Below, piece after piece: positions 3 through 19,748 of a stretch of 20,000 nucleotides of DNA (its first letter is position 1; every line of letters starts with the position of its first letter). Location: assembly GCA_900128565.1 (NCBI GenBank), contig LT635914.1, positions 47,117 to 67,116 of the forward strand. Direction: 5' to 3'. This stretch comes from Stramenopiles sp. TOSAG23-6 (taxonomy: Eukaryota). The position numbers were made by a program, and so were the translations under genes. The notes beneath the pieces were generated by a model, which had not been told where the DNA came from, did not search any database, and saw only the letters and a program-made list of their open reading frames with translations.

Positions 3-749
3 GGACAAATCAATCGAATATTTACAATGAACATTTTATACCAGCGGTGGGGAAAGGTCGTAGATAAATTTGGTTCTATAATCAGTTGCAGCGATTCAAA
101 ATCACCCAAACAAAATAAAAAGGCTAGAAAAGGAAGAAAGAGAAGTATAGGTTGGGCGGTATTAGAAAAAAAAATAAGGTCAAGGGCTAAATGGAAGCGT
201 GAAAATAATTCATATTTGATTGCAAATTTATCCAGATCGGAAGATAATGAAGACAACCAAGAAAAAAGAGATTCTTTGGATATTATAGATTTATTCCAAC
301 AAAAAGGAATGATTTACAACAGATTTATCATTGATGCTCAGTCTCGTTTAAAATTGACATTCTGGGAATTGCGGGATTTTTACATTACTTCTATTGCGTC
401 AAAAATTCACGAAAATCATCGTAAGCTTTTTCTAAAATTTGACGGTACTTACACTTCAAACAAAGTAATTGTCGGAGGAAAAAGTTTTGATTTTTCTAAT
501 TTAAGTTTTGAAGACCTTCCGTGTACATCGCAGTATCGCCTCCTGGAAGTAGCTACTGCCGCAGTGAATGTAATTATGTCACATTTCCTTCAATGTTGCT
601 CAAGTGAAGCATTGAGATTGGAGTTTTCCATCTTGCCAGAGCACTGTGTTCAAGTATTTGACCAGTTATCTGACGAAAGTATCGACACGCGCCTCGTAAA
701 TGAAGCATTAAATTTAGTATTTATTGAATTCCAGAATAATAAAAAATAA
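3..749 (+). CDS. Mirror copy of the 3' end of the NACHT-WD40 gene (5'-partial, not an independent gene)
   Basis: The translation GQINRIFTMNILYQRW...EFQNNKK* is identical to the C-terminus of ORF 7172..13960(-). The frame is open to the window edge. Confidence 0.9.
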   Translation, partial: GQINRIFTMNILYQRWGKVVDKFGSIISCSDSKSPKQNKKARKGRKRSIGWAVLEKKIRSRAKWKRENNSYLIANLSRSEDNEDNQEKRDSLDIIDLFQQKGMIYNRFIIDAQSRLKLTFWELRDFYITSIASKIHENHRKLFLKFDGTYTSNKVIVGGKSFDFSNLSFEDLPCTSQYRLLEVATAAVNVIMSHFLQCCSSEALRLEFSILPEHCVQVFDQLSDESIDTRLVNEALNLVFIEFQNNKK

Positions 750-851
750 ATGTAAAATCAATAAATCTCATAGGTTTCATCAAAGCTTTTTGCAAGTAAT
801 CTTTTTGTGGCAATTTACATTAAAAACGGATAGATATATCCTATGACTCAA

Positions 852-2763: not shown

Positions 2764-3846
2764 ATGACAACACCAAGTCCTGAGAATATGACGACTATTA
2801 ATGATGACCTTTCAGCTAAAGCAGACGAGCTTCGATCTCTCCTCGCAAACCAAAAAGAGCTTGTACGGGGCATGAAAAAAGATAAGGGAAATCATTCTGC
2901 TGAAGAGATTAAGGCTGCTGTTACAAAGATGCAAAAGTTGGCGAAAGATCTACGGTTAGTACTCAAAGACGTCAGCGTCGATTTAGAAGTTCCTGACGAG
3001 GCAGCTTTGCAAAAACTTTTGAAACAACGTTTTTTCGTTGTCCCATCTTTTGAGATCTATGGAGGTTGTGGTGGGCTCTACGATTTCGGTCCTCCTGGTT
3101 GTGCCCTCAAGGCCAACTTCATTTCTCTGTGGCGCAATCACTTTGTGATGCAGGAAAATATGTTAGAAGTTGACTGCACTAATCTTACACCAGAATCCGT
3201 TCTCAAGACATCAGGGCATGTAGACCTTTTCACCGATCTCATGGTGAAAGATCTTGTCACTGGTGAACCTCACCGTGCTGACAAACTTCTTGAACTTCAT
3301 ATTGAAGAGCTATTGAAAGATGTAGAAATGCCAACTGCTAAACGCAGGGAGCTCGAACGGATTCATGCTCAGGCTGATGCTTTTTCACCAACTGAACTCG
3401 ATTCACAATTCGAACGATTCGGTATTAAATCNCCAACGACTGACAACGAGTTAAGTACTTCTTTCCCTTTTAATCTAATGTTTGCTACAACAATCGGCCC
3501 AGAAGGCCATAATAAAGGTTTCCTCCGTCCTGANACTGCACAAGGAATTTTTGTTAACTTTAAGCGACTCCTTGAATTTAATGCAGGCAAAATGCCATTT
3601 GCTGCTGCACAGGTAGGCATTGGCTTTCGCAATGAAATTTCTCCTCGCGGTGGACTCATTCGCGTTCGTGANTTTCCAATGGCTGAAATTGAACATTTTG
3701 TTAACCCTAACAATAAGAAACATCCAAAATTTAAACATATTTCTGATATGAAGATTCCACTTTTTCCAAGTTCTTCTCAACTTGGCGATGGAAAGTTATG
3801 TGAGATATCTATAGGAGAAGCAGTAAAAAATGGAGTAGTCGATAAT
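2764..3846 (+). CDS. GARS1: Glycine--tRNA ligase, eukaryotic alpha2 type, exon 1 (3'-truncated by the fold-back); possible in-frame upstream ATG at 2641
   Basis: WHEP-like helix pair [17 protein letters not shown]...[66 protein letters not shown]; [13 protein letters not shown]; motif 2 [17 protein letters not shown]. Homology ends at GVVDN, immediately followed by the donor-like GTACGT and T-rich sequence. Confidence 0.95.
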
Positions 3847-3960
3847 GTACGTTTTCACTACATTTTACATATATTTTGTTTTTTCGTGTTTTTTACGAAA
3901 AAAAAAATTTGTACTTGAAAATTGTTTTTTTTACTCAAAAAAAAAAAAAAAAAAAAAAAT
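3847..3960 (+). other. GlyRS intron, 5' part only; member of the AT|GTAYGTTTT intron family
   Basis: Junction GATAAT|GTACGTTTT at the point where GlyRS similarity stops. Internal TACGAAA...TTGTACTTGA resembles TACGAAA...GTACCTAAC of the CFAP58 introns. The 3' end is lost at the poly-A hairpin centre. Confidence 0.8.
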
Positions 3961-4074
3961 ATTTTTTTTTTTTTTTTTTTTTTTGAGTAAAAAAAACAAT
4001 TTTCAAGTACAAATTTTTTTTTTCGTAAAAAACACGAAAAAACAAAATATATGTAAAATGTAGTGAAAACGTAC

Positions 4075-5157
4075 ATTATCGACTACTCCATTTTTTACTG
4101 CTTCTCCTATAGATATCTCACATAACTTTCCATCGCCAAGTTGAGAAGAACTTGGAAAAAGTGGAATCTTCATATCAGAAATATGTTTAAATTTTGGATG
4201 TTTCTTATTGTTAGGGTTAACAAAATGTTCAATTTCAGCCATTGGAAANTCACGAACGCGAATGAGTCCACCGCGAGGAGAAATTTCATTGCGAAAGCCA
4301 ATGCCTACCTGTGCAGCAGCAAATGGCATTTTGCCTGCATTAAATTCAAGGAGTCGCTTAAAGTTAACAAAAATTCCTTGTGCAGTNTCAGGACGGAGGA
4401 AACCTTTATTATGGCCTTCTGGGCCGATTGTTGTAGCAAACATTAGATTAAAAGGGAAAGAAGTACTTAACTCGTTGTCAGTCGTTGGNGATTTAATACC
4501 GAATCGTTCGAATTGTGAATCGAGTTCAGTTGGTGAAAAAGCATCAGCCTGAGCATGAATCCGTTCGAGCTCCCTGCGTTTAGCAGTTGGCATTTCTACA
4601 TCTTTCAATAGCTCTTCAATATGAAGTTCAAGAAGTTTGTCAGCACGGTGAGGTTCACCAGTGACAAGATCTTTCACCATGAGATCGGTGAAAAGGTCTA
4701 CATGCCCTGATGTCTTGAGAACGGATTCTGGTGTAAGATTAGTGCAGTCAACTTCTAACATATTTTCCTGCATCACAAAGTGATTGCGCCACAGAGAAAT
4801 GAAGTTGGCCTTGAGGGCACAACCAGGAGGACCGAAATCGTAGAGCCCACCACAACCTCCATAGATCTCAAAAGATGGGACAACGAAAAAACGTTGTTTC
4901 AAAAGTTTTTGCAAAGCTGCCTCGTCAGGAACTTCTAAATCGACGCTGACGTCTTTGAGTACTAACCGTAGATCTTTCGCCAACTTTTGCATCTTTGTAA
5001 CAGCAGCCTTAATCTCTTCAGCAGAATGATTTCCCTTATCTTTTTTCATGCCCCGTACAAGCTCTTTTTGGTTTGCGAGGAGAGATCGAAGCTCGTCTGC
5101 TTTAGCTGAAAGGTCATCATTAATAGTCGTCATATTCTCAGGACTTGGTGTTGTCAT
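4075..5157 (-). CDS. GARS1: Glycine--tRNA ligase exon 1 (right-arm copy, 3'-truncated)
   Basis: Mirror of 2764..3846 with an identical translation. Confidence 0.95.
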
Positions 5158-5407
5158 GGAAATATTACAATGCGAGTAGCTGCATAGCAAAGGAACTTGC
5201 AAATGACCGACGCGCACGAGCGGAACGATACCCGGTACACCGGCCGAACTGGCTCTTTCTGAACATATATAGGTATACATATGGTATAACTAACCCATCT
5301 CTTTTTCATTGCTCTTTCCTTTTTACTTTATTTCACAATAATCGATTGCTCCGCAGTCATCATTTTTAATAAACTATTGGTATAAAGTAGGCTTACAGTA
5401 TTTGAAA

Positions 5408-7069
5408 ATGAAGTTTGTAGTCTTGATAGTTTTGGTAATTCGAATAAATTCGGTTGTTGAAGCAGCAGTAGGAGACGCTGAAAGAGTTTTAGATGTAGCA
5501 CTTGGTGATTCTATAACTATTTTTAATACTACGATGGGAAGTTGGAAGGTTGGCTCTTTAAACTCGAGAGATTTTACTAAAGCAGAAGAAATTGGTAGAG
5601 GTACATATGGAATCGTAAGTGGCGGGACAATGAAACGCACTGAATCAACAAAAGAATATTTTGANTCGGATGCTGATTGTGATAANCAAGTAGCATTAAA
5701 AGAGTTTATTGAACCAGCGCTACCTTATTCAATGACAAGAGAAATTGCGTTTTCTAACTTAATATGTAAGGCAAAACAGAGTGAATGCTTACGTAAAAAT
5801 TTGGTGGGTTACATCGGAAGCTTTTATCAAGATGGTGCTTTCGCTCCTAATCCAACCATTGTTTTTGAGAAGATTGAAAGGGGTCGCCCAAGTGTGAACG
5901 TTCAGCCGCAAATAATTGGTCCCAGAATTGTGAATAATTCCAGAAATCTGAAAGAAATAATTGATCTAATATATAATATAAGTTTTATGTCAAAAACAAT
6001 GCCCAAAGATTTAATCGAAGAGAAAATACCCGGTGCAAGCAATGAGTTTGATAGTTTATTTAATGTNCTGGTTTTGGAACACTGGAAAAAATCAAGTATT
6101 TTTGATTGGTTTTGTAGTATCTTTTTAAGTGCAGCAAATGGCCTCAGATCAATGCACTCAAAAGGAGTTTACCATATGGATTTAAAACCAGAGAATTTAT
6201 TTGTGGATTTTGAAAATTCTACAATTCGTATTGGAGACTTTGGTAATTCATGTGTAGAGTTAAATGGTGAATACGAAGATATTGTGGCAAGTTATAAGGA
6301 AGAATATGGCTTTAAGNGTCAAAAAGGTATGAGTCCAGAAGATATTGCCCGTTTTGATACATTTGTATATAATCAAAGTCATACATCATGGAGTGATTCT
6401 GGTTGGGGTTGTGACCCAAAATCAGTGACATATCCTTATAATGAAGCTTTGATACACTCTGTGAACCCTGTTGGNCCACCAAATATCGCGAATTGGTTTT
6501 CACATCTTCAAAATAATCTCGATTTTGAGAGTGCAAGTGATGAATTACTTAAAGGNTTTGAGTCATTTTTGGGGAATGATGGAAATATGAAAAATATGGA
6601 TATGTTTAGTGTTGGTGTAATCATGGTAGAGGTTTTATTAGGCCAAAATATAATACTGTGGAATCGATCATTTCGTGAGCATTTTCAAAAACATATTTAT
6701 TGGATGCCTGAAGAAGAACGAAAAAGGCCGGTAGAAACCTTAATNAATTTTCTTGATAATCCGATTCCAGATAAGCCCTCTTTTGATAGCGGTACTTGGG
6801 TCCGTACGTATATGAAATATTACAATAGAAATATGATAACTGCCCCATTCTGGGGCTCTATTTGGAACTCCTTCAAAATCAAACAAAAACATGATATTGC
6901 GAAACTTTTGGCGCCACTTTTGATTAAGGAATTGGAACGACCGACTGCGGAGAAACTGTTCGGTTTGATTCGCGCTGTCGTTGAAAGTGGCANGGGTACA
7001 AATATGCCAGACTCTGATGAAGAAGAAGGCGATGTTGGTAGATATAAAAAAAGACAAAAAACAGATTAG
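5408..7069 (+). CDS. Ser/Thr protein kinase with signal-peptide-like N-terminus (right-arm copy), intronless, ~553 aa
   Basis: Same kinase motifs as 852..2513. N-terminus MKFVVLIVLVIRINSVVEAAVG; C-terminus DSDEEEGDVGRYKKRQKTD. Divergent from GlyRS and convergent with the NACHT-WD40 gene. Confidence 0.9.
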   Translation: MKFVVLIVLVIRINSVVEAAVGDAERVLDVALGDSITIFNTTMGSWKVGSLNSRDFTKAEEIGRGTYGIVSGGTMKRTESTKEYFXSDADCDXQVALKEFIEPALPYSMTREIAFSNLICKAKQSECLRKNLVGYIGSFYQDGAFAPNPTIVFEKIERGRPSVNVQPQIIGPRIVNNSRNLKEIIDLIYNISFMSKTMPKDLIEEKIPGASNEFDSLFNXLVLEHWKKSSIFDWFCSIFLSAANGLRSMHSKGVYHMDLKPENLFVDFENSTIRIGDFGNSCVELNGEYEDIVASYKEEYGFKXQKGMSPEDIARFDTFVYNQSHTSWSDSGWGCDPKSVTYPYNEALIHSVNPVXPPNIANWFSHLQNNLDFESASDELLKXFESFLGNDGNMKNMDMFSVGVIMVEVLLGQNIILWNRSFREHFQKHIYWMPEEERKRPVETLXNFLDNPIPDKPSFDSGTWVRTYMKYYNRNMITAPFWGSIWNSFKIKQKHDIAKLLAPLLIKELERPTAEKLFGLIRAVVESGXGTNMPDSDEEEGDVGRYKKRQKTD

Positions 7070-7171
7070 TTGAGTCATAGGATATATCTATCCGTTTTTA
7101 ATGTAAATTGCCACAAAAAGATTACTTGCAAAAAGCTTTGATGAAACCTATGAGATTTATTGATTTTACAT

Positions 7172-10100
7172 TTATTTTTTATTATTCTGGAATTCAATAA
7201 ATACTAAATTTAATGCTTCATTTACGAGGCGCGTGTCGATACTTTCGTCAGATAACTGGTCAAATACTTGAACACAGTGCTCTGGCAAGATGGAAAACTC
7301 CAATCTCAATGCTTCACTTGAGCAACATTGAAGGAAATGTGACATAATTACATTCACTGCGGCAGTAGCTACTTCCAGGAGGCGATACTGCGATGTACAC
7401 GGAAGGTCTTCAAAACTTAAATTAGAAAAATCAAAACTTTTTCCTCCGACAATTACTTTGTTTGAAGTGTAAGTACCGTCAAATTTTAGAAAAAGCTTAC
7501 GATGATTTTCGTGAATTTTTGACGCAATAGAAGTAATGTAAAAATCCCGCAATTCCCAGAATGTCAATTTTAAACGAGACTGAGCATCAATGATAAATCT
7601 GTTGTAAATCATTCCTTTTTGTTGGAATAAATCTATAATATCCAAAGAATCTCTTTTTTCTTGGTTGTCTTCATTATCTTCCGATCTGGATAAATTTGCA
7701 ATCAAATATGAATTATTTTCACGCTTCCATTTAGCCCTTGACCTTATTTTTTTTTCTAATACCGCCCAACCTATACTTCTCTTTCTTCCTTTTCTAGCCT
7801 TTTTATTTTGTTTGGGTGATTTTGAATCGCTGCAACTGATTATAGAACCAAATTTATCTACGACCTTTCCCCACCGCTGGTATAAAATGTTCATTGTAAA
7901 TATTCGATTGATTTGTCCTAAACCAGCCAGTGGTTCGTATATTTGCATTATATAAATATTACCTGTGTCATCTCCACAAGTCAAAGTTTTGTTGTCAGAA
8001 GAAACAAATATTGCAGTAATACAAACATAAAACTTATATTCACAGTACCTATACCCAGTAANGGGGCACCATAACATCATTCGTTGATCATAACCTCCAG
8101 ATACAAGAAACATGAGATTTGGTGAAAATGCTAGCGTCGATATTGCCGCAGAATGTCCAGCAAATGCACCAGGCAGTGTCGAGATTTCTGGTTTTCTAGC
8201 CAAACTTAGGGTATTCCANACTGCAATGTTAGAAATATCATCACCAATTGCAATTAAATTTCCATCTGCTGCAATGCACATGGCGCTTAATCTACCTCGA
8301 AGTTTTGGGTGATTGGAAGCATTCCAATTTGGTGTTGCATTACGTAAAGATAGTGAACTATTTTCAAGATCCACGCAATGTGTGTTCACCACCCCCACAT
8401 CATTCATTACTACTAAGTAACTTCCATCTTCACCACTATTAGTGGAAAGCACGAATGAAGAAATAGGACCAAACTTCAAATTTACATTATACAGTTTTTN
8501 AGGATTTGACCATGCGTTAGTTTTGCTACCAGATCCCCAAATTGCAATGAGTGAGTTTTTATCCCCCGAAATAAGACGGTCTTCATTCACAACTAAGCAT
8601 GTTATACCTGTGTTGTGTGCGGCCATTGTGCTTAATTCGGATGCTAGTAAGGATGCATGTGGTTGCTTCTTTNTCTTGCTTTGAATGGCCGTGGAAAATT
8701 TCCACGCAACAATTTTTGAATCAACGTCATCACCGCCTGAGAAAAGTATTATTTCGCCACNCTTTTGGGGTGATGCAAATGCAATTGATAAGACTGAATC
8801 TATATGCCCTTTGAGTTTACATGCTAATTGATTCAATTGTATATCCCATAAATGTAACGATAAGTCTAGTGAACCACACGCAACGTACCGAGAATCATGA
8901 CTTACTTTACAGCACATAACCCNATTAGAATGTTTGTGGGTTTTCCCATTCAGCATCAACCGTTTATCTGAAGAAGAACCTAACTGCATTCCTGTATGGA
9001 GAAATAACCGCACAGTAGTGTCGTGGCTACAACTGGTGATGGTCCCATCATGGAGGAAATCACAACCGCTTACTGCATCATTATGTCCACTAATAGATCG
9101 AATTACTTTGCATTTCTTAATATCCCAGAGCAAAATACTATTATCTAGCCCGCATGTAATAAGTTCTCCTTCTTTTTCATCNTTAAACGCCGCGCTTAAT
9201 AAGCCACGTGAATGACCCTTATCTTCTCGTAGTACACAAATACAACCACCGTTATTTGGGTTCTTACCTAGGAACATATTACCTGTTGTACTCCACAGCA
9301 TGGCACATCCGTCTAACGAAGTAGTGCAAAACACGTCGTTGCTTTGNTGCCAAGTCAATGACGTCACTCTGTCCAAATGGTGTGCTGTATATTTTATTTC
9401 GATGACAATTTTGCTCCCGGAAATATNATCAGTATCAAATAAAATGATATTGCCAGTGATATTACCAACAGCACACTTATCGCCAAATGGGGAAAAATCA
9501 ACCGCAGTAAACTGACTTAATTCATACGCTGCAGACCACGAAGTTACTTGCTCNGAGGATTTCTTGCAATTCCAGAATCTTATTGCGGAGTCGGAAGATA
9601 CTGATACAATCCAAAGTCCATTATATGTCAATGAAATATCTGAAACNGAGGAAGAGCTATGACCCCCNTCAATACGGGAAGTTAGTTCATACTCTGGGCT
9701 NTTCCAAATAAGAATATCCCCAGCTCTATCACCTGAAGCTATGCACTCTCTGCACCACGAAACACTTGTTATCCCAGAAGTGTGACCTTCTAAGCTTTTA
9801 TCTACTGTCATTGTTTCATCTATAGTTATTATTTGTAGATTTGCATTCTCAAATCCGATTAAAGCTTGAGCTTTATTCGGAGACATACACATTACATTCA
9901 TTCTCATATCAGCATAAACATGNTTAGCGTCTTTTCGTTCAGTATCTTTGCATAGAAGTTTCTGTTGAATCAGTATGGGACAGGCGCCAAATGTGTCAAT
10001 ATTTGATTCCAATGTACTTGTACAAAAGTCCGCCGCAATGGATGAGATACCCTGACTNCCCAAAGCTTGCTGGAAAATCTTTGTAGGAGATGAATTCAGT

Positions 10101-13100
10101 TCTATTGATCGCTCTCTGAGAAAGAAAAAATGCTCTGTAATAGATTTTGTGAACATTGTAGTGAAACGCTTTAACGTATTATCAATACTAATTTCAGGGA
10201 AGCGTAGCATTTTTGGAATTGCTGATTTCACTGGCTTAGAATTTTCGTTTCCCTTTGAGGTTAAATACTTTTGAATGCCTTGGACAATTTCCCCTCTTCG
10301 AGATCGTAGACAATCTGGTAGAATCTTAGTNCTCGTCCCATTCTCANTTGTAATTACATTCTCAGTTAAAGGCTTCAGCTTTTCAGAATTTATAAAAGAT
10401 TCACAAATTAAATTCGGCTTGGCTAAGATATTTGGAAGTAAATANTGAAAATGATCAATAAGTTCATACACAGATGCACCATCTAATACNATATAGGCCT
10501 TGAGAAATCTCAAATTGCAAAAGACTGAACATATTTGGAGAAATCCCATTTTCGAGGGATCTTGCAGTTGGCAAAGATAAAATGGATACACCTGAAGGGC
10601 ATATGGATTTGGCTTACGGAAAGAATAATCACAATATGGATCCGAAACACTTCTGCACCATTGTACCAGAGCACTAACATAAATGTCACGATTAGCCGAA
10701 CCTGGACCTCCCAAGTATTTCGCTTCTATAATCTGTGATATTCTTTCATGNTGTATACACAACATGTTTGGATACGGACTCAGTTCTACAAGTTGTAGAA
10801 AACCTCGCATACTTGAAATTAGTGCATCAAGCAACCCTTTTTTAGTATATGATTGCTTCCGANTAGTTTCTACTATCTTCAAGATGTTAGGAATATCACA
10901 CGTAAAAATACCAAAAAGCGATAAGTGAATTAATGAGAATAAATTGCAAGTAACGTCATATCCGAATGTTTCTTCAAAATGTGTTATAACACAATTAATT
11001 ATTCCGTCCAAACTGTTCGGAAAAGATTTGCGTGAAACCCCTAAGTCTTCAGAAAAGAAAATATATGTTGCAATTTCCAGATATAGAGGTGTAATTGTGA
11101 TGTTTTGAAATTCTGTGTTGGACANCATATCAATCAATGAGATAAGTGTATTATCTATATTTCTATGNAATAAAGATTTGCTGGCAATATTCGATCTTCT
11201 GATNAAAGATTTTACCACTAGAGTACTAAATTTTATCAAGGTCTTGCCAGATGGTAGTAAATGTTTGATGTCAAATACNGCAGTTTCTGGTTTTCCTTTC
11301 GGTAATTTCCCCATAGGCATGGTGATCATAATCATAATATGGCCATTGTTTCGAAAGCGATAAGGTATCCAGTCAAATTCTTCAGACTTGTACGGAACAC
11401 TTAACTTATGAGCATCATCAATGCATATCAATAATTGAAGGTTATCTCTTTCAGCTTTAAGNGCAACTTTATCAAGCAAATTAAAAAAATACGGCCGGAG
11501 GCTGGAGTATTCTCCTGGGATTCTAGTATTGACACAAATTTCAAAACGTGNTTGAAGTTCAAAACACAAACGGAATAGCATACGTCTACAATCATAACTA
11601 TTAGGTGATGCACCAACAAAATGAGATAAAGAAATTACACTATTGCGCTCCTTTTCTTTACAAACTTTAGGACATACATGAGCTATCTTCGCACATAGTG
11701 TTGTCACGCCAATACCGGCAAGATTAAGGGGCCTTTCCCACACTAAAGGTTTTCCGTGTTCACCTGCTGTCCACAATTCATCCATTATTTCATCAACTAC
11801 TCGGTCATTAAAATCATCACTGAAATATGGTACATATTGAGATGTATATTGTGATACAAGGTGTTGGTGAAGAAAACTTTCTTGAATTAACAATTTATGC
11901 CCTGAAACTTCTAATTTTGATTGTGATGTTTTGACAGAGTCGTAGTTTCCAGGTAAACCATAAGTGCAAGGACTACAATCAAATCCAAACTCGTACTGTA
12001 AAGCCTCAAATATGTCATCAATTGCTATACTTGCCAATGTATTTAAACTAAGTCTGTCTATACTATTCACCTCATTGAGTGCCCCTTGTCTACATTCATA
12101 AGTATTTCTACAAGATTTAGAAAACTTTTCATCATATGATTTAATATCAATTTCCAAAAGATTTAAATTCNAATTCTCCTTACTGATTTTTGTATTATTT
12201 TTCAATATTCGGTTGTATATGAAACGATGACTTGGAAGTGCTGAACGATTCATTGCTTTTATTGTCATGTGAAAGAGAGATCTCACACCGTTAGCACCAC
12301 ACAATTTTGTATCCGGAATCCACCCATATTCTTCACCAATCAACGCAACATAGAATGGTTTACATGTTTTGATACCACGCTGCATATTTTCCAACAAATT
12401 AAGTGACGTTTCAACGTGAGATCCATCTTTTAGTTGAACANGTATACACAAGTTTTTTTCTTTCAGTCGGCGATTCAATAATGGGACTACTACATTGTGG
12501 AAAACCCAATGTTCTTCTTCAAATCCCTTTCCTACNGATGCCAAATAAATGTATACATTCCGTTGAAATCCATGTGCTCGAAGGGCAGCCTCTCCTTCAC
12601 CCCATATCATACAATGATGTGATGCACAGTCCTCTCTATGCATTAATATGAGTTCTCTTTGNTTTGCATTTTTTTGATTGATAGGTTTTTGTCTCGTCTT
12701 CCCTTGTGACATTTGCTTTGAAGAAATATTGGTGTAGTGAGACGACAATCGAATTTCGGTGCAATCATTGTGTATGTGGTGAGCATGAAGCGTTTGAATA
12801 GGTATAGGCATTTTGATGTTTAAATGTGGCAAATGTACATGCGAGTTAATTTTTATGGGGTATACTTCTTCAACATCTGGAAACCTAGAATTATTACTGC
12901 GACGTCTAGGTGACAATGAAGTAGATTTTTNTTTTTTATCTCCCNTAAAATATTTTTTNCGAGGTGAACATGATGTCGACGGACGCATCCCACGTTGGGC
13001 AGAAAAAGCTTTTCTATTGTTANCATAACNTCGAGTTTTTGATTCTAAGTCAAAAGGTATACCAAACGTTGCCAATAGTTTTCTTTGCCTCTGATAATTA

Positions 13101-13945
13101 ATATTCCCCGATTTCCCGCTTACTTTCTTCTCTTTTGATAACATTGCAGGGGCTGTAGAAGGACGTATTCTTTGCTTATACTGGTTGCCAGAGTTGCCGT
13201 ATTTCGTTTGAGTTCGCATTTCTGATGAACTAGGGTTTCCAGTTGTTCTCAGTCGTTGCAAAGATTTATTGTATCGTNTGAAATCTTCTTGTTTCTTTAC
13301 ATGGTATGGAATAGATTTTGAGTCTGATAGCTTCATGCTACTNTCCTTTGCTTTTCTTCCTCGTTGCATNTGCTTTGCCGTTATTTGTGTGGCTCCAGGA
13401 TTCACTGGATCTGGTCGCGGTATTATGTCGGCTGAAGCATTCATTGGTTCCGTATGCTCAAATGTTTTACTAGTATCGAACTCACTTATTTTCAGAACTG
13501 GNTGCCGATTTTTGCGGATTCGTCTCTTTAGCCAGCTAGCAGAGACATGTTCTGTTCTCTGTCTCTCCATGCGCTCGGCCATTGCAAGCAATTTATGCAT
13601 CTCTATATCTTTAGGGTTCATTAGAATACCTTTCTTGGCTGTGGTGATTGCGGCTGGGAACCTCTCCTGGGCAATCTGTTCTTTGCAAAGTTCTTTGCGA
13701 CTTTTCTTCTTTCTTATCTTCTTCTTCTTCTTCTTCTCTGGAACTTCTATACGGTTCTGCACATCGTTATCAATTTGAGGAACTATTTCATGTTTAGCTG
13801 TCTTTGCGTTTTCTACTTCTACAGCCGTAGACTTTTTGNTAGTATGACCAGAACCACGACCAAAGAATGAACCAACAACATCAAAACCCTCCATCTCTGG
13901 CAANTCTTTGGCAAACNCTCGAGGCTCTGAAGCGTTTCCCAACAT
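7172..13945 (-). CDS. Large TEP1/NWD-type STAND protein: basic low-complexity N-terminus, DUF4062-like domain, NACHT-like domain, multiple WD40 repeats, ~240-aa unknown C-terminal region
   Basis: Uninterrupted ~6.8-kb ORF (first ATG 13945; 13960 is GTG). DUF4062-like VYIYLA...PFYVALIGEEYGWIP; P-loop region AGIGVTT; HFVGASPNS; Walker B LLICIDDAH; PLYL; WD40 repeats LEGHTSGITSVSW, ISGHNDAVSGCDF, GSLDLSLHLWDI, LKGHIDSVLSIAF, AGHSAAISTLAFSP...SGGYDQRMMLW. Confidence 0.85.
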   Translation of the reverse strand: MLGNASEPRXFAKXLPEMEGFDVVGSFFGRGSGHTXKKSTAVEVENAKTAKHEIVPQIDNDVQNRIEVPEKKKKKKIRKKKSRKELCKEQIAQERFPAAITTAKKGILMNPKDIEMHKLLAMAERMERQRTEHVSASWLKRRIRKNRXPVLKISEFDTSKTFEHTEPMNASADIIPRPDPVNPGATQITAKXMQRGRKAKXSSMKLSDSKSIPYHVKKQEDFXRYNKSLQRLRTTGNPSSSEMRTQTKYGNSGNQYKQRIRPSTAPAMLSKEKKVSGKSGNINYQRQRKLLATFGIPFDLESKTRXYXNNRKAFSAQRGMRPSTSCSPXKKYFXGDKKXKSTSLSPRRRSNNSRFPDVEEVYPIKINSHVHLPHLNIKMPIPIQTLHAHHIHNDCTEIRLSSHYTNISSKQMSQGKTRQKPINQKNAXQRELILMHREDCASHHCMIWGEGEAALRAHGFQRNVYIYLAXVGKGFEEEHWVFHNVVVPLLNRRLKEKNLCIXVQLKDGSHVETSLNLLENMQRGIKTCKPFYVALIGEEYGWIPDTKLCGANGVRSLFHMTIKAMNRSALPSHRFIYNRILKNNTKISKENXNLNLLEIDIKSYDEKFSKSCRNTYECRQGALNEVNSIDRLSLNTLASIAIDDIFEALQYEFGFDCSPCTYGLPGNYDSVKTSQSKLEVSGHKLLIQESFLHQHLVSQYTSQYVPYFSDDFNDRVVDEIMDELWTAGEHGKPLVWERPLNLAGIGVTTLCAKIAHVCPKVCKEKERNSVISLSHFVGASPNSYDCRRMLFRLCFELQXRFEICVNTRIPGEYSSLRPYFFNLLDKVXLKAERDNLQLLICIDDAHKLSVPYKSEEFDWIPYRFRNNGHIMIMITMPMGKLPKGKPETXVFDIKHLLPSGKTLIKFSTLVVKSXIRRSNIASKSLXHRNIDNTLISLIDMXSNTEFQNITITPLYLEIATYIFFSEDLGVSRKSFPNSLDGIINCVITHFEETFGYDVTCNLFSLIHLSLFGIFTCDIPNILKIVETXRKQSYTKKGLLDALISSMRGFLQLVELSPYPNMLCIXHERISQIIEAKYLGGPGSANRDIYVSALVQWCRSVSDPYCDYSFRKPNPYALQVYPFYLCQLQDPSKMGFLQICSVFCNLRFLKAYXVLDGASVYELIDHFXYLLPNILAKPNLICESFINSEKLKPLTENVITXENGTXTKILPDCLRSRRGEIVQGIQKYLTSKGNENSKPVKSAIPKMLRFPEISIDNTLKRFTTMFTKSITEHFFFLRERSIELNSSPTKIFQQALXSQGISSIAADFCTSTLESNIDTFGACPILIQQKLLCKDTERKDAXHVYADMRMNVMCMSPNKAQALIGFENANLQIITIDETMTVDKSLEGHTSGITSVSWCRECIASGDRAGDILIWXSPEYELTSRIXGGHSSSXVSDISLTYNGLWIVSVSSDSAIRFWNCKKSXEQVTSWSAAYELSQFTAVDFSPFGDKCAVGNITGNIILFDTDXISGSKIVIEIKYTAHHLDRVTSLTWXQSNDVFCTTSLDGCAMLWSTTGNMFLGKNPNNGGCICVLREDKGHSRGLLSAAFXDEKEGELITCGLDNSILLWDIKKCKVIRSISGHNDAVSGCDFLHDGTITSCSHDTTVRLFLHTGMQLGSSSDKRLMLNGKTHKHSNXVMCCKVSHDSRYVACGSLDLSLHLWDIQLNQLACKLKGHIDSVLSIAFASPQKXGEIILFSGGDDVDSKIVAWKFSTAIQSKXKKQPHASLLASELSTMAAHNTGITCLVVNEDRLISGDKNSLIAIWGSGSKTNAWSNPXKLYNVNLKFGPISSFVLSTNSGEDGSYLVVMNDVGVVNTHCVDLENSSLSLRNATPNWNASNHPKLRGRLSAMCIAADGNLIAIGDDISNIAXWNTLSLARKPEISTLPGAFAGHSAAISTLAFSPNLMFLVSGGYDQRMMLWCPXTGYRYCEYKFYVCITAIFVSSDNKTLTCGDDTGNIYIMQIYEPLAGLGQINRIFTMNILYQRWGKVVDKFGSIISCSDSKSPKQNKKARKGRKRSIGWAVLEKKIRSRAKWKRENNSYLIANLSRSEDNEDNQEKRDSLDIIDLFQQKGMIYNRFIIDAQSRLKLTFWELRDFYITSIASKIHENHRKLFLKFDGTYTSNKVIVGGKSFDFSNLSFEDLPCTSQYRLLEVATAAVNVIMSHFLQCCSSEALRLEFSILPEHCVQVFDQLSDESIDTRLVNEALNLVFIEFQNNKK

Positions 13946-14150
13946 TGTNTAGATGCTCACTTACTGTTGTTGCATTTTCTCTAATACTATGTGCGAGTAA
14001 AATTTGGACGTATATCGATGAATTGAATCTAAGAAATTTTGATACTAGCTATTAGATACTAATTTCGAGGGTATCAAAAAAGAAAATAAACGTTAACGTT
14101 ACAACAACGTATGAAAATATTGGACAGGTTTGTACAATGAAACATGATTT

Positions 14151-17049
14151 TTATTTTTGTTCACTTTCATTAATTTCATTTTGAAATAATTCCATTTTCT
14201 GTTGCATTTGTATTTGATGCTGTTGACTCTGTTGTTCCAAATGTAGTTGTTGTTGTTGTATTTGCATATCTTGTTGTTGCTTCCGCATCTTTCTAAAATA
14301 ATCTTTCTTCATCGAAATCATTCGTTCTGAAATTTGCTCAATATCATGTTTTAATTCTTCAACTTGGTGCTTATACATGTCAAGTTCGTTATCCATTTTT
14401 TTCATTTGGTGTCGTTTTTCTTTTAGGTTTTCTTCATATATCGTTAGCTGCTCGGCAACTTCAGGCCCTGGCTGNCTCGCTAGAATATTCTTCAATTCAA
14501 CATATAATCTTTCTTTTTCTTGTATTAATAGGTCTCTTTCTATCACTTCCTGTGTTTTTGACAGTAGTTGCTTTTGCTTTCTTTGGATTTTTTGAATGAG
14601 CCCAAATCGTTTTGGGTCGGTACCNGCAAGTTTTCGCCATCTATGTATATTCATTGGACGTTCTAATTCTGTCGATAAAGCAGTGATTTTGGCCTTCTCC
14701 CTCAAAATCTCTTTTTCAAGACTATATTGCCTAGTTTTCATTGATGATAGATCAAGAACATTACTCTTGAGATAATCAAGACGTTCTTTTGCAATGACCA
14801 ATGCATCTTTCAATGCCTCGGCTCTTGCTTGAGTTTGAGAATATTGCCACTCACCTTTGGATAGTGTTGATCTTTGAATCTTAATTTTTTCATAAAGTTT
14901 AGCCAACTCTTCATTTCGGCGTATAAGTTGCGCACCAAGAATATCCCGTTCATTTACAACAGCTGTGAACTCCTTTGACGACCTTGCAGTTTCACCGTCA
15001 GCTTCCTGAATGATGGCTTTGAGTTTCCGAACTTCATCTTTTTGAGTGCTGAGAATTTGATCGGAGGATAGGATTTGCTTGCGTACTCGCGTAATATCAT
15101 TTCTAAGACGTTTAACATCTTTACAAACCTTGACATGAGCAAAATGTTCTTTTAGAAGATCTTGGTCTTTCGAAGTGATTTCTTCTTTTTGTTGTTCAAT
15201 TACTTGAACAAGAATCTTAAATTTACGTTTCATTTCGGCTATTTCTTCATGGGATTCAATAAGTTGCTTCGAGTATAAATTACGATCACTCCGGACCCCT
15301 TCATACAAATTTTGCTGCTTTTTAATACGACTTTCACCCNCTGCAATCTTTTTCTGTTCTTCAACTACTTGAAGCTCATGCAGGCGAACATCTTCAAGAG
15401 CAGCATAGTATTTTTGATTTACCAAATGGCATTCTTTCTCATATTTGTCTCTCTCAATTTCTAAAGCTTCGATCCTTTCGCGCTGTTTACGCGCCGAGAC
15501 CTTAAATAGTTGAATGTATTTTGGAAAAATATTTCAAAAAAAAATTAATTTTTGTTAGGTACAACATTTCGTACGAAAAAAAAATTTCGTACAAAAAAAA
15601 TAAAACATACATATCTCGCCCAACATTTTTTATGGTGTTTTCTGCAACTTTAACTAAATCATGNGTTCCTTTTGTTGCTATTTCTTCCTTTGTAAGTTTC
15701 TTATTCAAGAATGTACGATCTCGCTCATGATCTGCNGCCGCCTTTTTTAATGAATCCGCTAACTTTTTTTCAACTTCAATTGCTGCTTCNACACCTGACA
15801 TCTTTGCTCGGAGATCAGCATTTACTTTATCATAGCGAAGCATACGCTGATCAGCTTCTTCGTACCTTTTAACAGTTAACTTCTTCAGTTTCCGAACTCG
15901 GCGAATTTCTTTTTCGATTTCTCTAACTTCTTTTTGTCGTTGTCCGCATTCTTTTAACCGTCTAGCATTTCCTTGCTCAATGAGATCATTTGTGTGAATT
16001 CTCTCCTCAATATCTTCTTCAACTTTTTTGATTTGCTGAAATAAAGCATCATAGTCTTTGAGGTAAACACCAATTTGGAGTTCTGCTATTTTTTGTTTTG
16101 ACTCAAATTTATCATTTAAACTAGTAGATTCATCGATTTTAACTGTTTTGGTTTGGACTATTGCTTGCAAACGTTGGAGTTCAACTCGCTGAATTTTTAA
16201 CTGTTTATCAAAACGATCCTTTTTGTTTTGTGCACTAATAATCTGTGCTTCACATGTTTTTACTTCTCCTTCTAAAGCTTTTGCCGCAGAGGTCACTTCA
16301 GTAAGTTCGTGTTGTTTAATTTCTACATGTATTGGAAAAAATATGACACAAAAAAAAATCGTTAGGTACGGAATTTCGTATGAAAAAATATAAATTCGAA
16401 ATTGAAAAAANATAAAACATACATGTTCAGAAAGCCCCGACGTTTTGAATCGAACGTTTGTCAATGCTTGCGTCAATGCTTGCAACTCAAGTTGTTTCTG
16501 ATCACGTTCATCTTCTAAATTAGATAATTCAAGCTTTTGATTCTTTGTCAGGCCAGGACCAACTTCCATCTCGTCCTCTAAATCAGAAATATTTATAGAA
16601 AGTTTATTAATCTCCGCGCGAGCAATATCCTCTGAATCTTGACATTGTTTGATTTCAACTTGAAACTTTTTGATATCTCGCTTAACATTATTTGCTCTAA
16701 AATCGCTCTCTTCGGTTTGTTTTTTGAGCCCACCAAGTTTCAATATTTTGTCTTCTGTGTCCTTTATCAGTTCGCAAGTTTTTTTTACTTGTTCAACTTC
16801 AGATTTAAATTGTTTCCCAATTTTTTCAAATAACTTTTCAAATTCAGGCTTAAAATTACCCATACCACCTTGAGCTTGTAGCATCTTATANACTCCCCCA
16901 AATCCAGATATTGCTTCGTTGAAAGCATCTTCATCAGCAGAGACTATAGGTTTAGTGAGTAGTTCCTTAAGCTCTGCTTTTTTTCGTCGCTGGATCTCTT
17001 CTTTTCTATTCTTTTCCTCATCTTCACTAGAATCAACTGTGGCTGGCAT
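14151..17049 (-). CDS. CFAP58: Cilia- and flagella-associated protein 58 (CCDC147/FAP189 family); 3 exons join(16423..17049, 15611..16326, 14151..15513); 2706 nt spliced, 901 aa
   Basis: Long coiled coil with family motifs KKQQNLYEGVRSDRNLYSK, ERDILGAQLIRRNEELAKLYEKIKIQ, PMNIHRWRKL, QEKERLYVELKNILAxQPGPEVAEQL. Removing the 96-nt and 97-nt T-rich inserts fuses ORFs 15502..17049 and 14151..15425 in frame. Confidence 0.93.
14190..14285 (-). repeat. Gln-rich (CAA/CAG) low-complexity tract at the CFAP58 C-terminus
   Basis: KQQQDMQIQQQQLHLEQQSQQHQIQMQQK; (TGT)n/(TTG)n on the plus strand. Confidence 0.8.
15514..15610 (-). mobile_element. CFAP58 intron 2 (97 nt), non-canonical GT..AT (or AT..AC), introner-like
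   Basis: Minus strand: CGAGATAT|GTATGTTTTATTTT...TTTTCGTACGAAATGTTGTACCTAAC...TATTTTTCCAAAATACAT|TCAACTATTTAAG. No AG inside. Removal gives GRD-IQLFKVSARKQR in frame. Confidence 0.75.
16327..16422 (-). mobile_element. CFAP58 intron 1 (96 nt), non-canonical GT..AT (or AT..AC), introner-like
   Basis: Minus strand: CTGAACAT|GTATGTTTTATNTTTT...TTTTCATACGAAATTCCGTACCTAAC...TATTTTTTCCAATACAT|GTAGAAATT. No AG inside. Unspliced, it would put 32 F/I/Y-rich residues into a coiled coil. Clearly similar to 15514..15610. Confidence 0.75.
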
Positions 17050-17355
17050 GAAGAAAATATAATCAAAAATGCCTATTCGTCAATCAAGCCTTTATCGCAA
17101 TGTGTGTAATCAATACTAAAAAATTACTATTTTGTGATGACTATTCGTGTTGGATATTTACTTAAAGACTTTCATTGATACTAGTACAAGAGTGCAAATT
17201 TTTACTAACGAAAAAAACGTTACATTTTTTTTAGGTACCCGGTTCCACAACNAAAAANTTAGANAAANTTTAATTGTTTAGAACATTTTTATTAGTTACA
17301 AATCTCATCATGTAATCAATAGACTAATTGTGTTGTCAAAGAGAGAATCTTTGAA

Positions 17356-18878: not shown

Positions 18879-19748
18879 ATGATATCCAGTGGTATGTTTA
18901 AGCAAACAGATCACGATATGTTAGAAGAAGAATATCTTGCCGCTTTCCGCTTCTTCGATAAAGATAGAGATGGACTACTCACACCTGTACAGCTTGCACA
19001 AGCTATGCAATCTCTAGGCTTTTGTCAAACTACTAGCGAGTTCAAGCGTATTCTATTTTGCCTTGATCCTAAATCCATTACCGAACAAGACTTTTTGAAT
19101 GTGCTGTCCTCAAAATTGGTACAAAATGGTTTACTCACCACTCCAAAACTATTAGACGCCTTTAAATTGTTCAATTCAGCTAAACGGTGCAGAGTTTCTG
19201 ACACTAGCAAAGGTTATCTGGAGGTTAACGATAGGGGTACTATATCACACACAGACTGGCTAGCCTTTACAACCAATTTCATTAAACCTCTCAACGTACG
19301 CTCAAAGGCAGTAATTAATACAGAAACACGAAAGGTAACAAAAATCGGTGCCTATGACTTGGCATATTTCCCCCCATATGTGTTTCTAGATGTCAAACGC
19401 GATTTTAGTCAGTCTGTAGAAGGAAAACGTGTGAAATATCGACAATGGATAAAAGACAACATCAAGGAGCATCCAGAGAATAGAAATCCAAAGAAAATGG
19501 CAGAGGTTATGACTGCATTAGGTCTATTCAACCACGTGTATAGAGAAAAACGTGCAAAATCTTCTGGTGGTGAACTGTTGGTTGATGATAAAAATTTAAT
19601 TCTCCGAGAAGATATAATTCGTGTGATCACTTCCATGGGAATTCCACTGAACTTTAGAGAGAGGAGAAGCTTTGCTTCTCTCATAGATGAGTCTGCCGAG
19701 GGAGAATATATAAACTATGCAAATTTATGTAAAAACCTTTTTCTTTAA
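18879..19748 (+). CDS. Divergent calmodulin-like EF-hand protein, 289 aa
   Basis: EEEYLAAFRFFDKDRDGLLTPVQLAQAMQSLG parallels calmodulin EF1. The C-terminal DIIRVITSMGIPLN...LIDESAEGEYINYANL parallels the EF3 exit helix and EF4. Confidence 0.8.
   Translation: MISSGMFKQTDHDMLEEEYLAAFRFFDKDRDGLLTPVQLAQAMQSLGFCQTTSEFKRILFCLDPKSITEQDFLNVLSSKLVQNGLLTTPKLLDAFKLFNSAKRCRVSDTSKGYLEVNDRGTISHTDWLAFTTNFIKPLNVRSKAVINTETRKVTKIGAYDLAYFPPYVFLDVKRDFSQSVEGKRVKYRQWIKDNIKEHPENRNPKKMAEVMTALGLFNHVYREKRAKSSGGELLVDDKNLILREDIIRVITSMGIPLNFRERRSFASLIDESAEGEYINYANLCKNLFL

What the first reader, a model, noticed from the sequence alone, without database searches (positions are those of the whole stretch)
15514..15612. 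The introns look like an introner (intron-generating transposon) family with an AT target-site duplication and short inverted ends
Seen: two introns of nearly identical length (96/97 nt) at different positions and phases (0 and 2) share three blocks: GTATGTTTTATnTTTTTT, TTTTTTCRTACGAAAT-x-GTACCTAAC and ATATTTTT(T)CCAA(AA)TACAT. Each can be written AT-[GTAT...ATAC]-AT, a 2-bp direct repeat around inverted termini (the direct repeat extends to ACATGTA at 16327..16422). Established: introners of Micromonas and Aureococcus are short non-autonomous DNA transposons that can co-opt a splice site from the target duplication, and non-canonical introner-derived introns are known in Amoebophrya and Fritillaria. 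Inference: insertion at an AT, with the duplicated AT used as acceptor, gives scar-free splicing. I do not recall a described GT-AT family of this kind, but I cannot search to confirm novelty.
Basis: partly seen in the sequence, partly recalled or inferred. Interest (0 to 1): 0.88.

Follow-up and report, generated by a model that had tools for sequence, protein, structure and literature searches.

The report
Repeated introns ending in AT, not AG
Two short look-alike insertions in a flagellar gene of an uncultured marine protist belong to a large family of near-identical introns that seem to be cut out from GT to AT instead of GT to AG, which matters for how new introns arise and how the splicing machinery picks its cut sites.

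Summary
Two inserts of 97 nt (15610..15514) and 96 nt (16422..16327), minus strand, interrupt a CFAP58-like gene. They are 75% identical, and no shuffle of 300 aligned as well. Only their removal from GTATGT to TACAT keeps the frame and matches orthologues. Neither can be a frame-keeping GT-AG intron.

They belong to a large family. A third full DNA copy lies in metagenome contig L052 (104 nt, phase 1). 45 predicted proteins from unrelated genes carry the same element read through in frame. The 40-nt core is covered hundreds to thousands of times more deeply than its flanks in seawater runs.

An AT, often ACAT, precedes the GT in most copies and repeats the element's last bases.

Best reading: an introner-like family of spliceosomal introns with a non-AG 3' end. 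Two things remain unproven: splicing itself, because no RNA junction was seen, and a DNA-transposon mechanism, because the inverted ends span only 4-6 nt, no transposase is known and no intergenic copies were found. The supposed third copy in GlyRS is not demonstrably a member. I class it as a new variant of a known kind.

The parts
15514..15610 (-). Intron A, 97 nt, phase 2. Starts GTATGT and ends AATACAT. Contains no AG dinucleotide.
15611..15612 (-). Exonic AT directly before intron A. It repeats the last two bases of the intron.
   Evidence: flank statistics across the family
16327..16422 (-). Intron B, 96 nt, phase 0. Same ends as A, one N at 16411, no AG dinucleotide.
16423..16426 (-). 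Exonic ACAT before intron B. Together with GTA it forms the 7-nt direct repeat ACATGTA (16426-16420 and 16330-16324).
15554..15562 (-). GTACCTAAC box of intron A, the presumed branch site. The putative branch A at 15555 lies 41 nt before the 3' end.
   Evidence: exact match. That it is the branch site is inferred.
16361..16369 (-). GTACCTAAC box of intron B. The putative branch A at 16362 lies 35 nt before the 3' end.
   Evidence: That it is the branch site is inferred.
15559..15592 (-). Palindromic GTACGAAA / TTTCGTAC hairpins of intron A. The 3' arm of the second hairpin runs into the branch box.
   Evidence: minimum free energy -17.2 kcal/mol, z -3.4; 2 of 200 shuffles fold as well
16349..16390 (-). 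Core of intron B that is massively repeated in seawater DNA and RNA runs.
   Evidence: In bin 16330-16378 the summed depth was 31192 (X4, DNA), 3927 (X5, RNA) and 3819 (X8, RNA), against about 4-5 on the flanks. 491, 56 and 91 contigs were laid.
16423..17049 (-). CFAP58-like gene, exon 1 (ATG at 17049-17047).
15611..16326 (-). CFAP58-like gene, exon 2.
14151..15513 (-). CFAP58-like gene, exon 3 with the stop codon. Pfam CFAP58_CC, profile positions 58-285 of 306.
3847..3960 (+). Start of the GlyRS intron (AAT|GTACGTTTTCAC...), cut off at the palindrome centre. At most a diverged relative of the family.
   Evidence: Its start, read as VRFH, is shared with P0031 and P0040, which carry the family core.

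Best explanation
A and B are members of a large, recently expanded family of short (about 95-130 nt) sense-oriented spliceosomal introns, an introner-like element, in an uncultured marine protist lineage.

Each copy carries:
- its own strong 5' splice site (GTATGT, sometimes GTACGT);
- a small palindromic hairpin (GTACGAAA/TTTCGTAC) that runs into a branch-site-like box (TACCTAAC) 35-41 nt before the end;
- a T-rich tail without any AG;
- a fixed 3' end, ...AATACAT.

The element is removed from the G of GTATGT through the T of TACAT. These are therefore GT-AT introns, not GT-AG introns.

New copies arise by insertion next to (AC)AT. The upstream exon then ends with the same bases as the element, so removing the element plus one repeat leaves no scar.

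**Status of each step**
- Shown: the family, its copies in many unrelated genes, the frame-restoring boundaries, and the flank rule.
- Inferred: removal by the major spliceosome, the branch site, and use of AU as the 3' terminal dinucleotide.
- Open: whether spread is by a DNA transposon that duplicates AT/ACAT, or by reverse splicing with a site preference.
For: **Boundaries**
- Only a 97-nt (A), 96-nt (B) or 104-nt (L052) removal from GTATGT to TACAT keeps the frame. The three copies sit in three different phases.
- Orthologue P0001 shows a 32-residue gap at B and abutting alignment pieces at A.
- 5 of the 5 homologues that reach junction A prefer this model to the only in-frame GT-AG alternative; 35 were examined.
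- In the boundary grid the GT..AT-equivalent removal is top for A and within one point of the top for B.

**A family, not generic signals**
- Pairwise identity is 75% (A-B), 75% (A-L052) and 82% (B-L052), with z 8.2-10.5 and 0 of 300 shuffles reaching any score.
- The GT-AG intron on L052 gives z -1.0 to 0.5.

**Many copies in unrelated genes**
- 6 of 9 hits in the 1.84-billion representative library carry the element.
- 45 of 47 hits in the 5.8-billion set carry the core, read as FFSYEILYLT.
- Host families include kinesin, TCP-1, IMPDH, Nrap, exportin-1, SNF2 and tRNA synthetases.
- 38 of the 47 carry EukProt ids with the prefix GSMAST32.
- The summed depth of the core is about 800-900 times (RNA runs X5, X8) to about 7,800 times (DNA run X4) that of the flanks.

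**Spliceosomal look**
- GTATGT or GTACGT starts; the TACCTAAY box is shared with a canonical intron on L052.
- No AG anywhere in A or B.

**Flank rule** (plus record 19)
- Phase 0 preceded by H, D or Y in 12 of 17.
- Phase 2 M in 6 of 6 internal copies.
- Phase 1 T before GT in 9 of 10.
- ACAT in 3 of 4 nucleotide-level junctions.

**The 3' AT is better kept than the upstream AT**
- H or Y in 12 of the 14 copies read in that frame by my own tally of the listing (a 15th, P0042, ends TKYD and fits neither).
- The two exceptions read Q (CAA or CAG).
- This fits an intronic, functional AT.

**End pairing.** The ends AUGUAU and AUACAU pair in the predicted folds.
Against: - No RNA junction was seen.
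- The core is also abundant in poly(A) RNA runs. This could mean retention, unspliced RNA or DNA carry-over.
- A GU...AU intron has no known precedent for the major spliceosome. An AG lies only 4 nt (B) and 13 nt (A) downstream, and a standard spliceosome would be expected to use it.
- The upstream AT is missing in 5 of 17 phase-0 copies.
- The transposon hallmarks are weak: inverted ends of 4-6 nt and a direct repeat of fixed sequence.
- No transposase partner is known, and no intergenic or antisense copy occurs in the 23 kb of DNA available.
- Protein-level copies were found only in sense by construction of the query, so orientation bias is not independently tested.
Confidence: 0.6

Rival explanations
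1. Same family, but spliced as AT-AC introns: the intron is ATGTATGT...AATAC, and the AT after TAC is exonic. This is a terminal pair the spliceosome is known to accept.
For: - All 3 DNA copies can be written this way and give the same mRNA (one search lists AT..AC among the equivalent boundaries).
- The pairing of a first A with a last C is an established class (my own knowledge).
- quotes AT as an accepted 5' end and AC as an accepted 3' end.
Against: - The upstream AT is absent in 5 of 17 phase-0 copies and in 1 of 10 phase-1 copies, whereas an intronic AT should be nearly invariant.
- The conserved hexamer GTAYGT would sit at +3 to +8 instead of +1 to +6.
- There is no U12-type ATATCC motif.
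- The box lies 35-41 nt from the end.
Confidence: 0.12
2. The family spreads through RNA, by reverse splicing of the excised intron into other transcripts followed by reverse transcription, as proposed for fungal introner-like elements. On this view (AC)AT before the GT is a preferred insertion context, not a duplication.
For: - All known copies are genic and in sense (3 of 3 DNA copies).
- The flank has a fixed sequence rather than an arbitrary duplicated one.
- The inverted ends are too short for typical transposon repeats.
- The elements are about 100 nt long with a stable hairpin, which resembles fungal elements as I recall them.
Against: - Direct repeats of 5 nt (L052) and 7 nt (B) extend across the boundary. 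This is more than a 2-nt preference predicts.
- The sample of DNA copies is far too small to judge orientation or intergenic presence.
Confidence: 0.25
3. The elements are not spliced at all. They are miniature transposon insertions that have disabled the genes, or they are removed at the DNA level. Removal of element plus one flank repeat restores the frame simply because that is what any insertion with a duplication looks like.
For: - Frame restoration alone cannot tell splicing from a plain insertion.
- No RNA junction was seen.
- The core is abundant in RNA runs.
Against: - Host genes are otherwise intact and include essential ones: exportin-1, TCP-1, tRNA synthetases, Nrap and IMPDH.
- CFAP58 keeps a 901-codon frame that is 52-69% identical to its orthologue.
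- Every copy is in sense, with a perfect 5' splice hexamer and a branch box at intron-like distance.
- The core-to-flank depth ratio is about ten times lower in RNA runs X5 and X8 than in DNA run X4. This is a rough measure only.
Confidence: 0.05
4. There is no family. All introns of this intron-poor genome look alike because strong splice signals and a fixed architecture are required.
For: GTAYGT and TACCTAAY also occur in a canonical GT-AG intron of L052. Intron-poor genomes tend to have strict signals (my own knowledge).
Against: - That canonical intron and the GlyRS intron show no significant similarity to A, B or L052 outside these boxes (z -1.0 to 1.6).
- Family members share about 75-82% identity over their whole length.
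- Several copies have near-identical translated sequences: P0004, P0007 and P0010.
Confidence: 0.03

Closest known systems
Introners of Micromonas pusilla and Aureococcus anophagefferens. I saw passages of the review PMC11282704 and of the preprint 10.1101/2020.10.14.339549. The original Huff et al. 2016 paper is not held.
   Same: - Short, non-coding, multi-copy elements that create introns in unrelated genes.
- A direct repeat at the boundaries and complementary ends.
- One splice site lies inside the element and the other coincides with the flank repeat, so removal is scar-free.
   Different: - Those families end in AG and have clear terminal inverted repeats. The review gives 3-nt duplications for Micromonas.
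- Here the 3' end is AT, the complementary ends span only 4-6 nt, and the repeat has a fixed sequence, (AC)AT.
- No mobilising enzyme is known here.
Introner-like elements of dinoflagellates (Polarella, Symbiodinium). I saw passages of preprint 10.1101/2020.10.14.339549.
   Same: Many classes recruit splice sites from the duplicated target. 5' ends other than GT are tolerated. Copies occur in several phases.
   Different: In the passages I saw, the variation is at the 5' end (GT, GC, GA) and the 3' end stays AG. Here the 5' end is a perfect GTATGT and the 3' end departs from the rule.
Introner elements among the non-canonical introns of Amoebophrya. I saw the abstract and passages of PMC7789003.
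   Same: Marine protist. Repeated introns with non-GT-AG borders, 3-5 nt direct repeats that overlap the exon/intron boundary, and complementary ends that bring the borders together.
   Different: - Amoebophrya borders are highly variable and its inverted repeats are 8-20 nt.
- Here one fixed pair (GT..AT) is combined with conventional 5' and branch signals and only 4-6 nt of end pairing.
Non-canonical introns of the tunicate Fritillaria borealis. I saw passages of the review PMC11282704 and passages of PMC13326754, with its abstract start in the listing.
   Same: Introns ending in AT are common there (AG-AC and AG-AT). They are thought to derive from miniature transposons and to be removed by a modified major spliceosome.
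   Different: The 5' end there is AG, not GT. The host is an animal. No single near-identical family with GTATGT and a branch box is described in the passages I saw.
Rare U12-type (minor) introns with GT-AT ends. I saw one passage of preprint 10.1101/2022.09.24.509304.
   Same: The terminal dinucleotides GT and AT occur as a rare subtype of minor introns.
   Different: Here there is no RTATCCTT-like 5' motif. The branch-like box lies 35-41 nt from the end; the 10-20 nt typical of minor introns is a figure I recall, not one from a call.

Membership tests
Introner / introner-like element | Many introns of high mutual sequence similarity within one genome or lineage | tested here: met
   - 3 full DNA copies at 75-82% identity.
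- 45 protein read-throughs that carry the core.
- The core is hundreds to thousands of times deeper than its flanks.
Introner / introner-like element | Copies lie at unrelated positions in unrelated genes | tested here: met
   The host proteins fall in different Pfam families. All three phases are represented.
Introner / introner-like element | Copies are removed from the mRNA as introns | tested here: inconclusive
   Frame and orthologue alignments require removal.
Introner / introner-like element | Recent, lineage-specific gain: the positions are absent from relatives or polymorphic | not testable with these tools
   The orthologue P0001 is available as protein only. No genome is held for the window. 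Near-identical copies suggest recency, but that is indirect evidence.
DNA-transposon type introner (miniature inverted-repeat element) | Target-site duplication flanking the element | tested here: inconclusive
   AT is repeated in 3 of 3 DNA copies, and ACAT in 3 of 4 nucleotide-level junctions. The repeat has a fixed sequence, so it cannot be told from a site preference. 5 of 17 phase-0 copies lack the AT.
DNA-transposon type introner (miniature inverted-repeat element) | Terminal inverted repeats of about 10 bp or more | tested here: not met
   Only GTAT/ATAC is complementary, or ATGTAT/ATACAT when the flank is included.
DNA-transposon type introner (miniature inverted-repeat element) | Autonomous partner with the same ends that encodes a transposase | not testable with these tools
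   No assembly is held. Pattern scans of three public collections gave one true copy and no long element.
U12-type (minor) intron | 5' motif RTATCCTT, and a TCCTTAAC-like branch site close to the 3' end | tested here: not met
   The 5' end is GTATGT. The box TACCTAAC lies 35-41 nt from the end. The motif definitions are recalled from memory.
U2-type AT-AC intron | Intron begins with AT and ends with AC in every functional copy | tested here: inconclusive
   This reading is possible for the 3 DNA copies. The upstream AT is lacking in 5 of 17 phase-0 and 1 of 10 phase-1 protein-level copies.
Canonical GT-AG intron | Ends in AG while keeping the reading frame | tested here: not met
   There is no AG inside A or B. 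The downstream AGs give a frameshift, a stop, or a poorer fit to homologues.

The most novel reading that the evidence does not exclude
An uncultured marine protist lineage carries hundreds to thousands of introner-derived introns that its major spliceosome removes at GU...AU. The 3' AU is supplied by duplication of an (AC)AT target, and the introns ignore a nearby AG. This would be the first introner family with a fixed non-AG acceptor. It would imply a lineage-specific change in how the second splicing step recognises its site.
Probability: 0.45. Interest if true: 0.85.

Novelty: new variant of a known kind. Interest (0 to 1): 0.72.

Why it matters
**Acceptor recognition.** Introners are the best-supported source of new introns, but the families I found described keep an AG acceptor. 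A family with a perfect GTATGT donor and a fixed AT acceptor would show that insertion chemistry can impose a new splice-site rule on a genome. That would give a natural system for asking how the 3' site is chosen: by distance from the branch site, by end pairing, or by changes in U2AF, Prp8 or Slu7.

**Gene annotation.** There is also a practical consequence. 38 public gene models of one EukProt data set contain the element translated as protein, or are truncated at it. Gene catalogues and 'pseudogene' calls for such single-cell assemblies are therefore likely to be distorted by these unrecognised introns.

Tried and rejected
**RNA evidence**
No RNA contig bridged intron B, and no joint across the intron was listed. 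X5 record 14 stops at 16324 with one unaligned letter.
- This leaves splicing untested. It is no evidence either way.

**Resources not available**
- No whole genome is held for the window.

**Pattern scans for more DNA copies**
- Viral contigs: 2 and then 10 loci, none a family member.
- Metagenome contigs: 68 loci, of which only L052 is real.
- Genome contigs: 4 bacterial chance hits.

**Other searches**
- An nhmmer profile of the three copies found no further copy, and no intergenic or antisense copy, in the window or L052.
- Rfam on the window gave 0 matches.
- PDB alignments of two kinesin hosts (P0043, P0046) did not reach the inserts, so they did not fix boundaries.
- A search for the organism's own spliced CFAP58 fragments found only homologues of at most 78% identity over partial alignments. 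These were still useful as orthologues.
- Antisense-peptide motifs were absent from the 46 proteins scanned: the 45 family hits plus P0030. That set was selected with a sense query, so this is no test of orientation.

**Ideas rejected**
- Translational bypass or hopping: phase-1 and phase-2 copies split a codon, which needs a nucleotide-level join.
- Intein: the inserts are frame-shifting junk.
- Ciliate-style TA-bounded DNA elimination: the TA-to-TA distance at A is 95 nt, which breaks the frame.
- Nested (stwintron-like) canonical splicing: there is no AG inside A or B.
Full report
**What is there.**
- The window is AT-rich (about 35% G+C) and gene-dense. It carries 82 isolated Ns.
- On the minus strand lies a CFAP58-like coiled-coil gene with its ATG at 17049 and its stop at 14151.
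- Two inserts interrupt its reading frame. Read through, they give hydrophobic junk.
- Insert A is 15610..15514 (97 nt) and insert B is 16422..16327 (96 nt).
- Both start with GTATGTTTTAT followed by a T run.
- Both have TTTTTTCRTACGAAAT followed by GTACCTAAC.
- Both end with ATATTTTT(T)CCAA(AA)TACAT.
- They are identical at 77 of 102 aligned columns (z = 8.2; 0 of 300 shuffles reach the score).
- The exact words GTATGTTTTAT and GTACCTAAC occur nowhere else in the 20 kb.

**Where the boundaries must be.**
- The best orthologue, P0001 (EukProt, 904 aa, Pfam CFAP58_CC), aligns to the three exons at 52% and 69% identity.
- It shows a gap of exactly 32 residues at B. At A, two alignment pieces abut on one isoleucine.
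- This demands removal of 96 and 97 nt.
- GTATGT to the next AG gives 100 nt (B) or 110 nt (A) and shifts the frame.
- GTTTTA to GTAG (96 nt) creates a TAA.
- Only GTTTTA..TTTAAG (106 nt, A) stays in frame. It deletes the conserved residues IQLFK.
- I compared 35 homologues with both models. The 5 that reach the junction all score higher with the 97-nt model (600 v 570, 348 v 332, 291 v 272, 284 v 270, 270 v 264). The other 30 do not reach it.
- A grid over boundaries ±15/18 nt puts the 97-nt product first for A. For B the 96-nt GT..AT-equivalent set (356) lies one point below the best product (357, also 96 nt). No GT..AG pair is among the best.
- Because AT (A) or ACATGTA (B) is repeated at both ends, the same mRNA results from GT..AT, TG..CA or AT..AC.

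**It is a family.**
- A scan of public metagenome contigs with a 16-base core pattern gave 68 loci, 67 of them chance hits.
- The one true hit is L052, a 3.2-kb contig of 35% G+C. Its copy is 104 nt, in phase 1, in an unrelated gene. It reads ACAT|GTATGT...AATACAT|GG and again keeps the frame only if removed at these ends.
- This copy is 82% identical to B and 75% identical to A.
- I translated the three copies in the frame that stays open and searched with the profile.
  - 6 of 9 hits in the representative library are true.
  - A nine-sequence profile then gave 47 hits at E ≤ 10 in the larger collection.
  - 45 of these carry the core peptide FFSYEI(L/S)YLT. The two dropped are P0030, which has no recognisable core, and P0050, a sturgeon protein.
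- By source, the 47 hits break down as follows:
  - 38 bear EukProt ids with the prefix GSMAST32;
  - 7 come from ENA contigs;
  - 1 comes from a GOS scaffold;
  - 1 is an NCBI record (P0050).
- The host proteins are unrelated. They include kinesins, TCP-1, IMPDH, Nrap, exportin-1, an SNF2 helicase, tRNA synthetases, an ABC transporter and others.
- Several copies are nearly identical as translated (P0004, P0007, P0010), which points to recent spread.
- Independently, when contigs of three RNA runs and one DNA run from seawater were laid on 15791-17251, the 40-nt core of B reached a summed depth far above its flanks:

| Run | Type | Depth on core | Depth on flanks | Contigs laid |
|---|---|---|---|---|
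| X4 | DNA | 31192 | about 4 | 491 |
| X5 | RNA | 3927 | about 5 | 56 |
| X8 | RNA | 3819 | about 4 | 91 |

- Hundreds of contigs diverge on both sides of the core. The tool warns that such sums are not copy numbers and include other organisms.
- One RNA-run contig (record 19) matches the 5' part of B up to and including the exonic ACAT and then continues differently. This is a fourth junction read at nucleotide level.

**Not just generic splice signals.**
- L052 also holds an ordinary intron (409..536): GTACGT ... GTACCTAAT ... CACAG, 128 nt, in frame.
- It shares the donor type and the branch-like box with the family, but is otherwise unrelated (z -1.0 to 0.5).
- So GTAYGT and TACCTAAY are probably this lineage's general signals, and the rest of the similarity is family-specific.
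It is cut at 3960 by a perfect 3960-nt palindrome of the contig.
- It is not significantly similar to A, B or L052 (z 0.9-1.6) and nhmmer does not find it.
- Its first bases, read as VRFH, recur in P0031 and P0040, which do carry the core. It may therefore be a diverged relative, but I do not count it.

**The flank rule.**
- Of the 45 read-throughs, 38 have a recognisable start.
- Phase 0 (VCF or VRF): 17 copies. They are preceded by H 7, D 3 and Y 2, that is 12 of 17 compatible with ..AT. The other five are V, L, R, T and S, one each.
- Phase 1: 10 copies. 9 start with C (T before the GT) and 1 with S (A before it). The residue before allows an A at -2 in 9 of 10.
- Phase 2: 11 copies. 5 sit at the N-terminus and are uninformative. 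The 6 internal ones all start with M (AT|G).
- At nucleotide level the flank is ACAT in B, L052 and the X5 contig, and ATAT in A. In A a synonymous C-to-T change would account for the difference.
- The element's own end is kept better, by my own tally of the listing. In the frame KYFSKI-, 12 of 14 end in H or Y and 2 end in Q (CAA or CAG); a 15th copy in this frame, P0042, ends TKYD and fits neither. In the other frame, all 7 are followed by a codon that can start with T.
- A better-kept downstream AT and a perfect GTAYGT hexamer both favour GT..AT over AT..AC.

**How it most likely works.**
- Shown:
  - the elements must be absent from the translated message;
  - they are a family;
  - they sit in sense in many genes;
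  - element plus one flank repeat is the unit removed.
- Inferred:
  - the major spliceosome recognises GUAUGU;
  - U2 pairs with UACCUAAC, whose branch A lies 41, 35 and 40 nt before the end in A, B and L052;
  - exon ligation follows ...UACAU.
- There is no AG in the whole of A or B. This suggests that AG is still read as an acceptor and is selected against inside the element.
- How AU is preferred over the AG 4 or 13 nt further on is unknown.
- The predicted folds pair AUGUAU (exon AU plus the first four intron bases) with the last six bases AUACAU. A GUACGAAA/UUUCGUAC hairpin abuts the branch box (-17.2 kcal/mol, z -3.4 for A; z -1.7 for L052). Such end pairing could help place the acceptor, but this is speculation.
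The inverted ends are only 4-6 nt, the repeat has a fixed sequence, and no partner element is known.
- Reverse splicing with a site preference is a live alternative.

**Comparison with what is known.**
- Introners that take one splice site from the duplicated target are established in Micromonas, Aureococcus and dinoflagellates. I saw passages of PMC11282704 and 10.1101/2020.10.14.339549.
- Repeated introns with non-canonical borders, boundary-overlapping direct repeats and end pairing are described in Amoebophrya (PMC7789003, abstract and passages).
- AT acceptors are common in Fritillaria, as AG-AT.
- GT-AT occurs as a rare minor-intron subtype.
- I found no family that combines a fixed GTATGT donor with a fixed AT acceptor.
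  - Searches for 'GT-AT' with 'introner' gave 0 papers.
  - A wider search gave nothing pertinent in the listings.
  - A large introner survey says it discarded families with unfamiliar splice sites unless RNA data supported them (PMC12130899, passages).
  - In a paper on single-cell genomes of MAST lineages the term 'intron' occurs twice in the text; the occurrence in the passages shown concerns gene prediction (PMC5778133).
- Supplements were closed and may hold relevant tables.

**Limits.**
- No genome is held for the window.
- Only the one read-laying run could not cover both introns.
- The protein-level copies were found with a sense-frame query, so they cannot test orientation.
- I did not determine the organism. 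The EukProt prefix of most family hits suggests a marine stramenopile single-cell assembly. The window's own CFAP58 is not among those records: the best hit, P0001, comes from another data set at 51% identity overall.

**Verdict.** The introner-family reading is well supported, the GT-AT acceptor is probable, and the transposon mechanism is open.

Noticed in passing
window 1-7920: Perfect inverted repeat: arms 1-3960 and 3961-7920 are 100% complementary with 0 nt between them. The centre lies in an A/T run inside the GlyRS intron. It looks like an amplification or assembly chimera. [quoted passage not shown]
   Followed up: partly
window, 82 positions (list): Isolated single Ns are scattered through coding sequence, one of them inside intron B (16411). 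In DNA run X4, 7 contigs show that position as left out (table 4).
   Followed up: no
proteins P0007, P0008, P0010, P0012-P0049 (EukProt ids with prefix GSMAST32): Public gene models translate the element as protein, or end inside it. The annotation pipeline evidently could not model these non-AG introns.
   Followed up: partly
L052 409-536 (+): An ordinary GT-AG intron (GTACGT...GTACCTAAT...CACAG, 128 nt, in frame) lies on the same contig as a family copy. Canonical and GT-AT introns therefore coexist.
   Followed up: yes
P0012, P0019, P0023: P0012 shows a doubled start (HVCFKYVCFIFF...). P0019 and P0023 each carry two separate copies of the element in one gene model.
   Followed up: no
P0016 and P0031: Two copies end in Q (CAA or CAG) where the others have H (CAT or CAC). 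If the codon is CAG, a single T-to-G change has made a normal acceptor at the same position. P0016 also has W where C is expected at its start.
   Followed up: no
L052 about 2272-2337 (+): Telomere-like repeats in inverted arrangement (CCCTAA ... TTAGGG) lie in the intergenic region between two convergent genes. Nearby, at about 1852-2027, there are three tandem copies of a unit of about 55 nt.
   Followed up: no
window 16219 and 16651: C>T at 16219 appears in RNA runs X5 and X8 and in DNA run X4. G>A at 16651 appears in X8 and X4. These look like strain variants, not editing (table 3).
   Followed up: no
paper PMC5778133, passage on dynein heavy chains: The paper reports 'advanced pseudogenization' of dynein genes in one MAST-3 single-cell assembly. 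If that genome carries this intron family, unrecognised GT-AT introns could mimic frameshifts. This is speculation and was not tested.
   Followed up: no
window 7175-13960 (-), 855-2579 (-), 18879-19745 (+): The neighbouring genes have no introns: a 2262-aa WD40 beta-propeller protein, a protein kinase and an EF-hand protein. The genome is intron-poor: three introns in 20 kb.
   Followed up: partly
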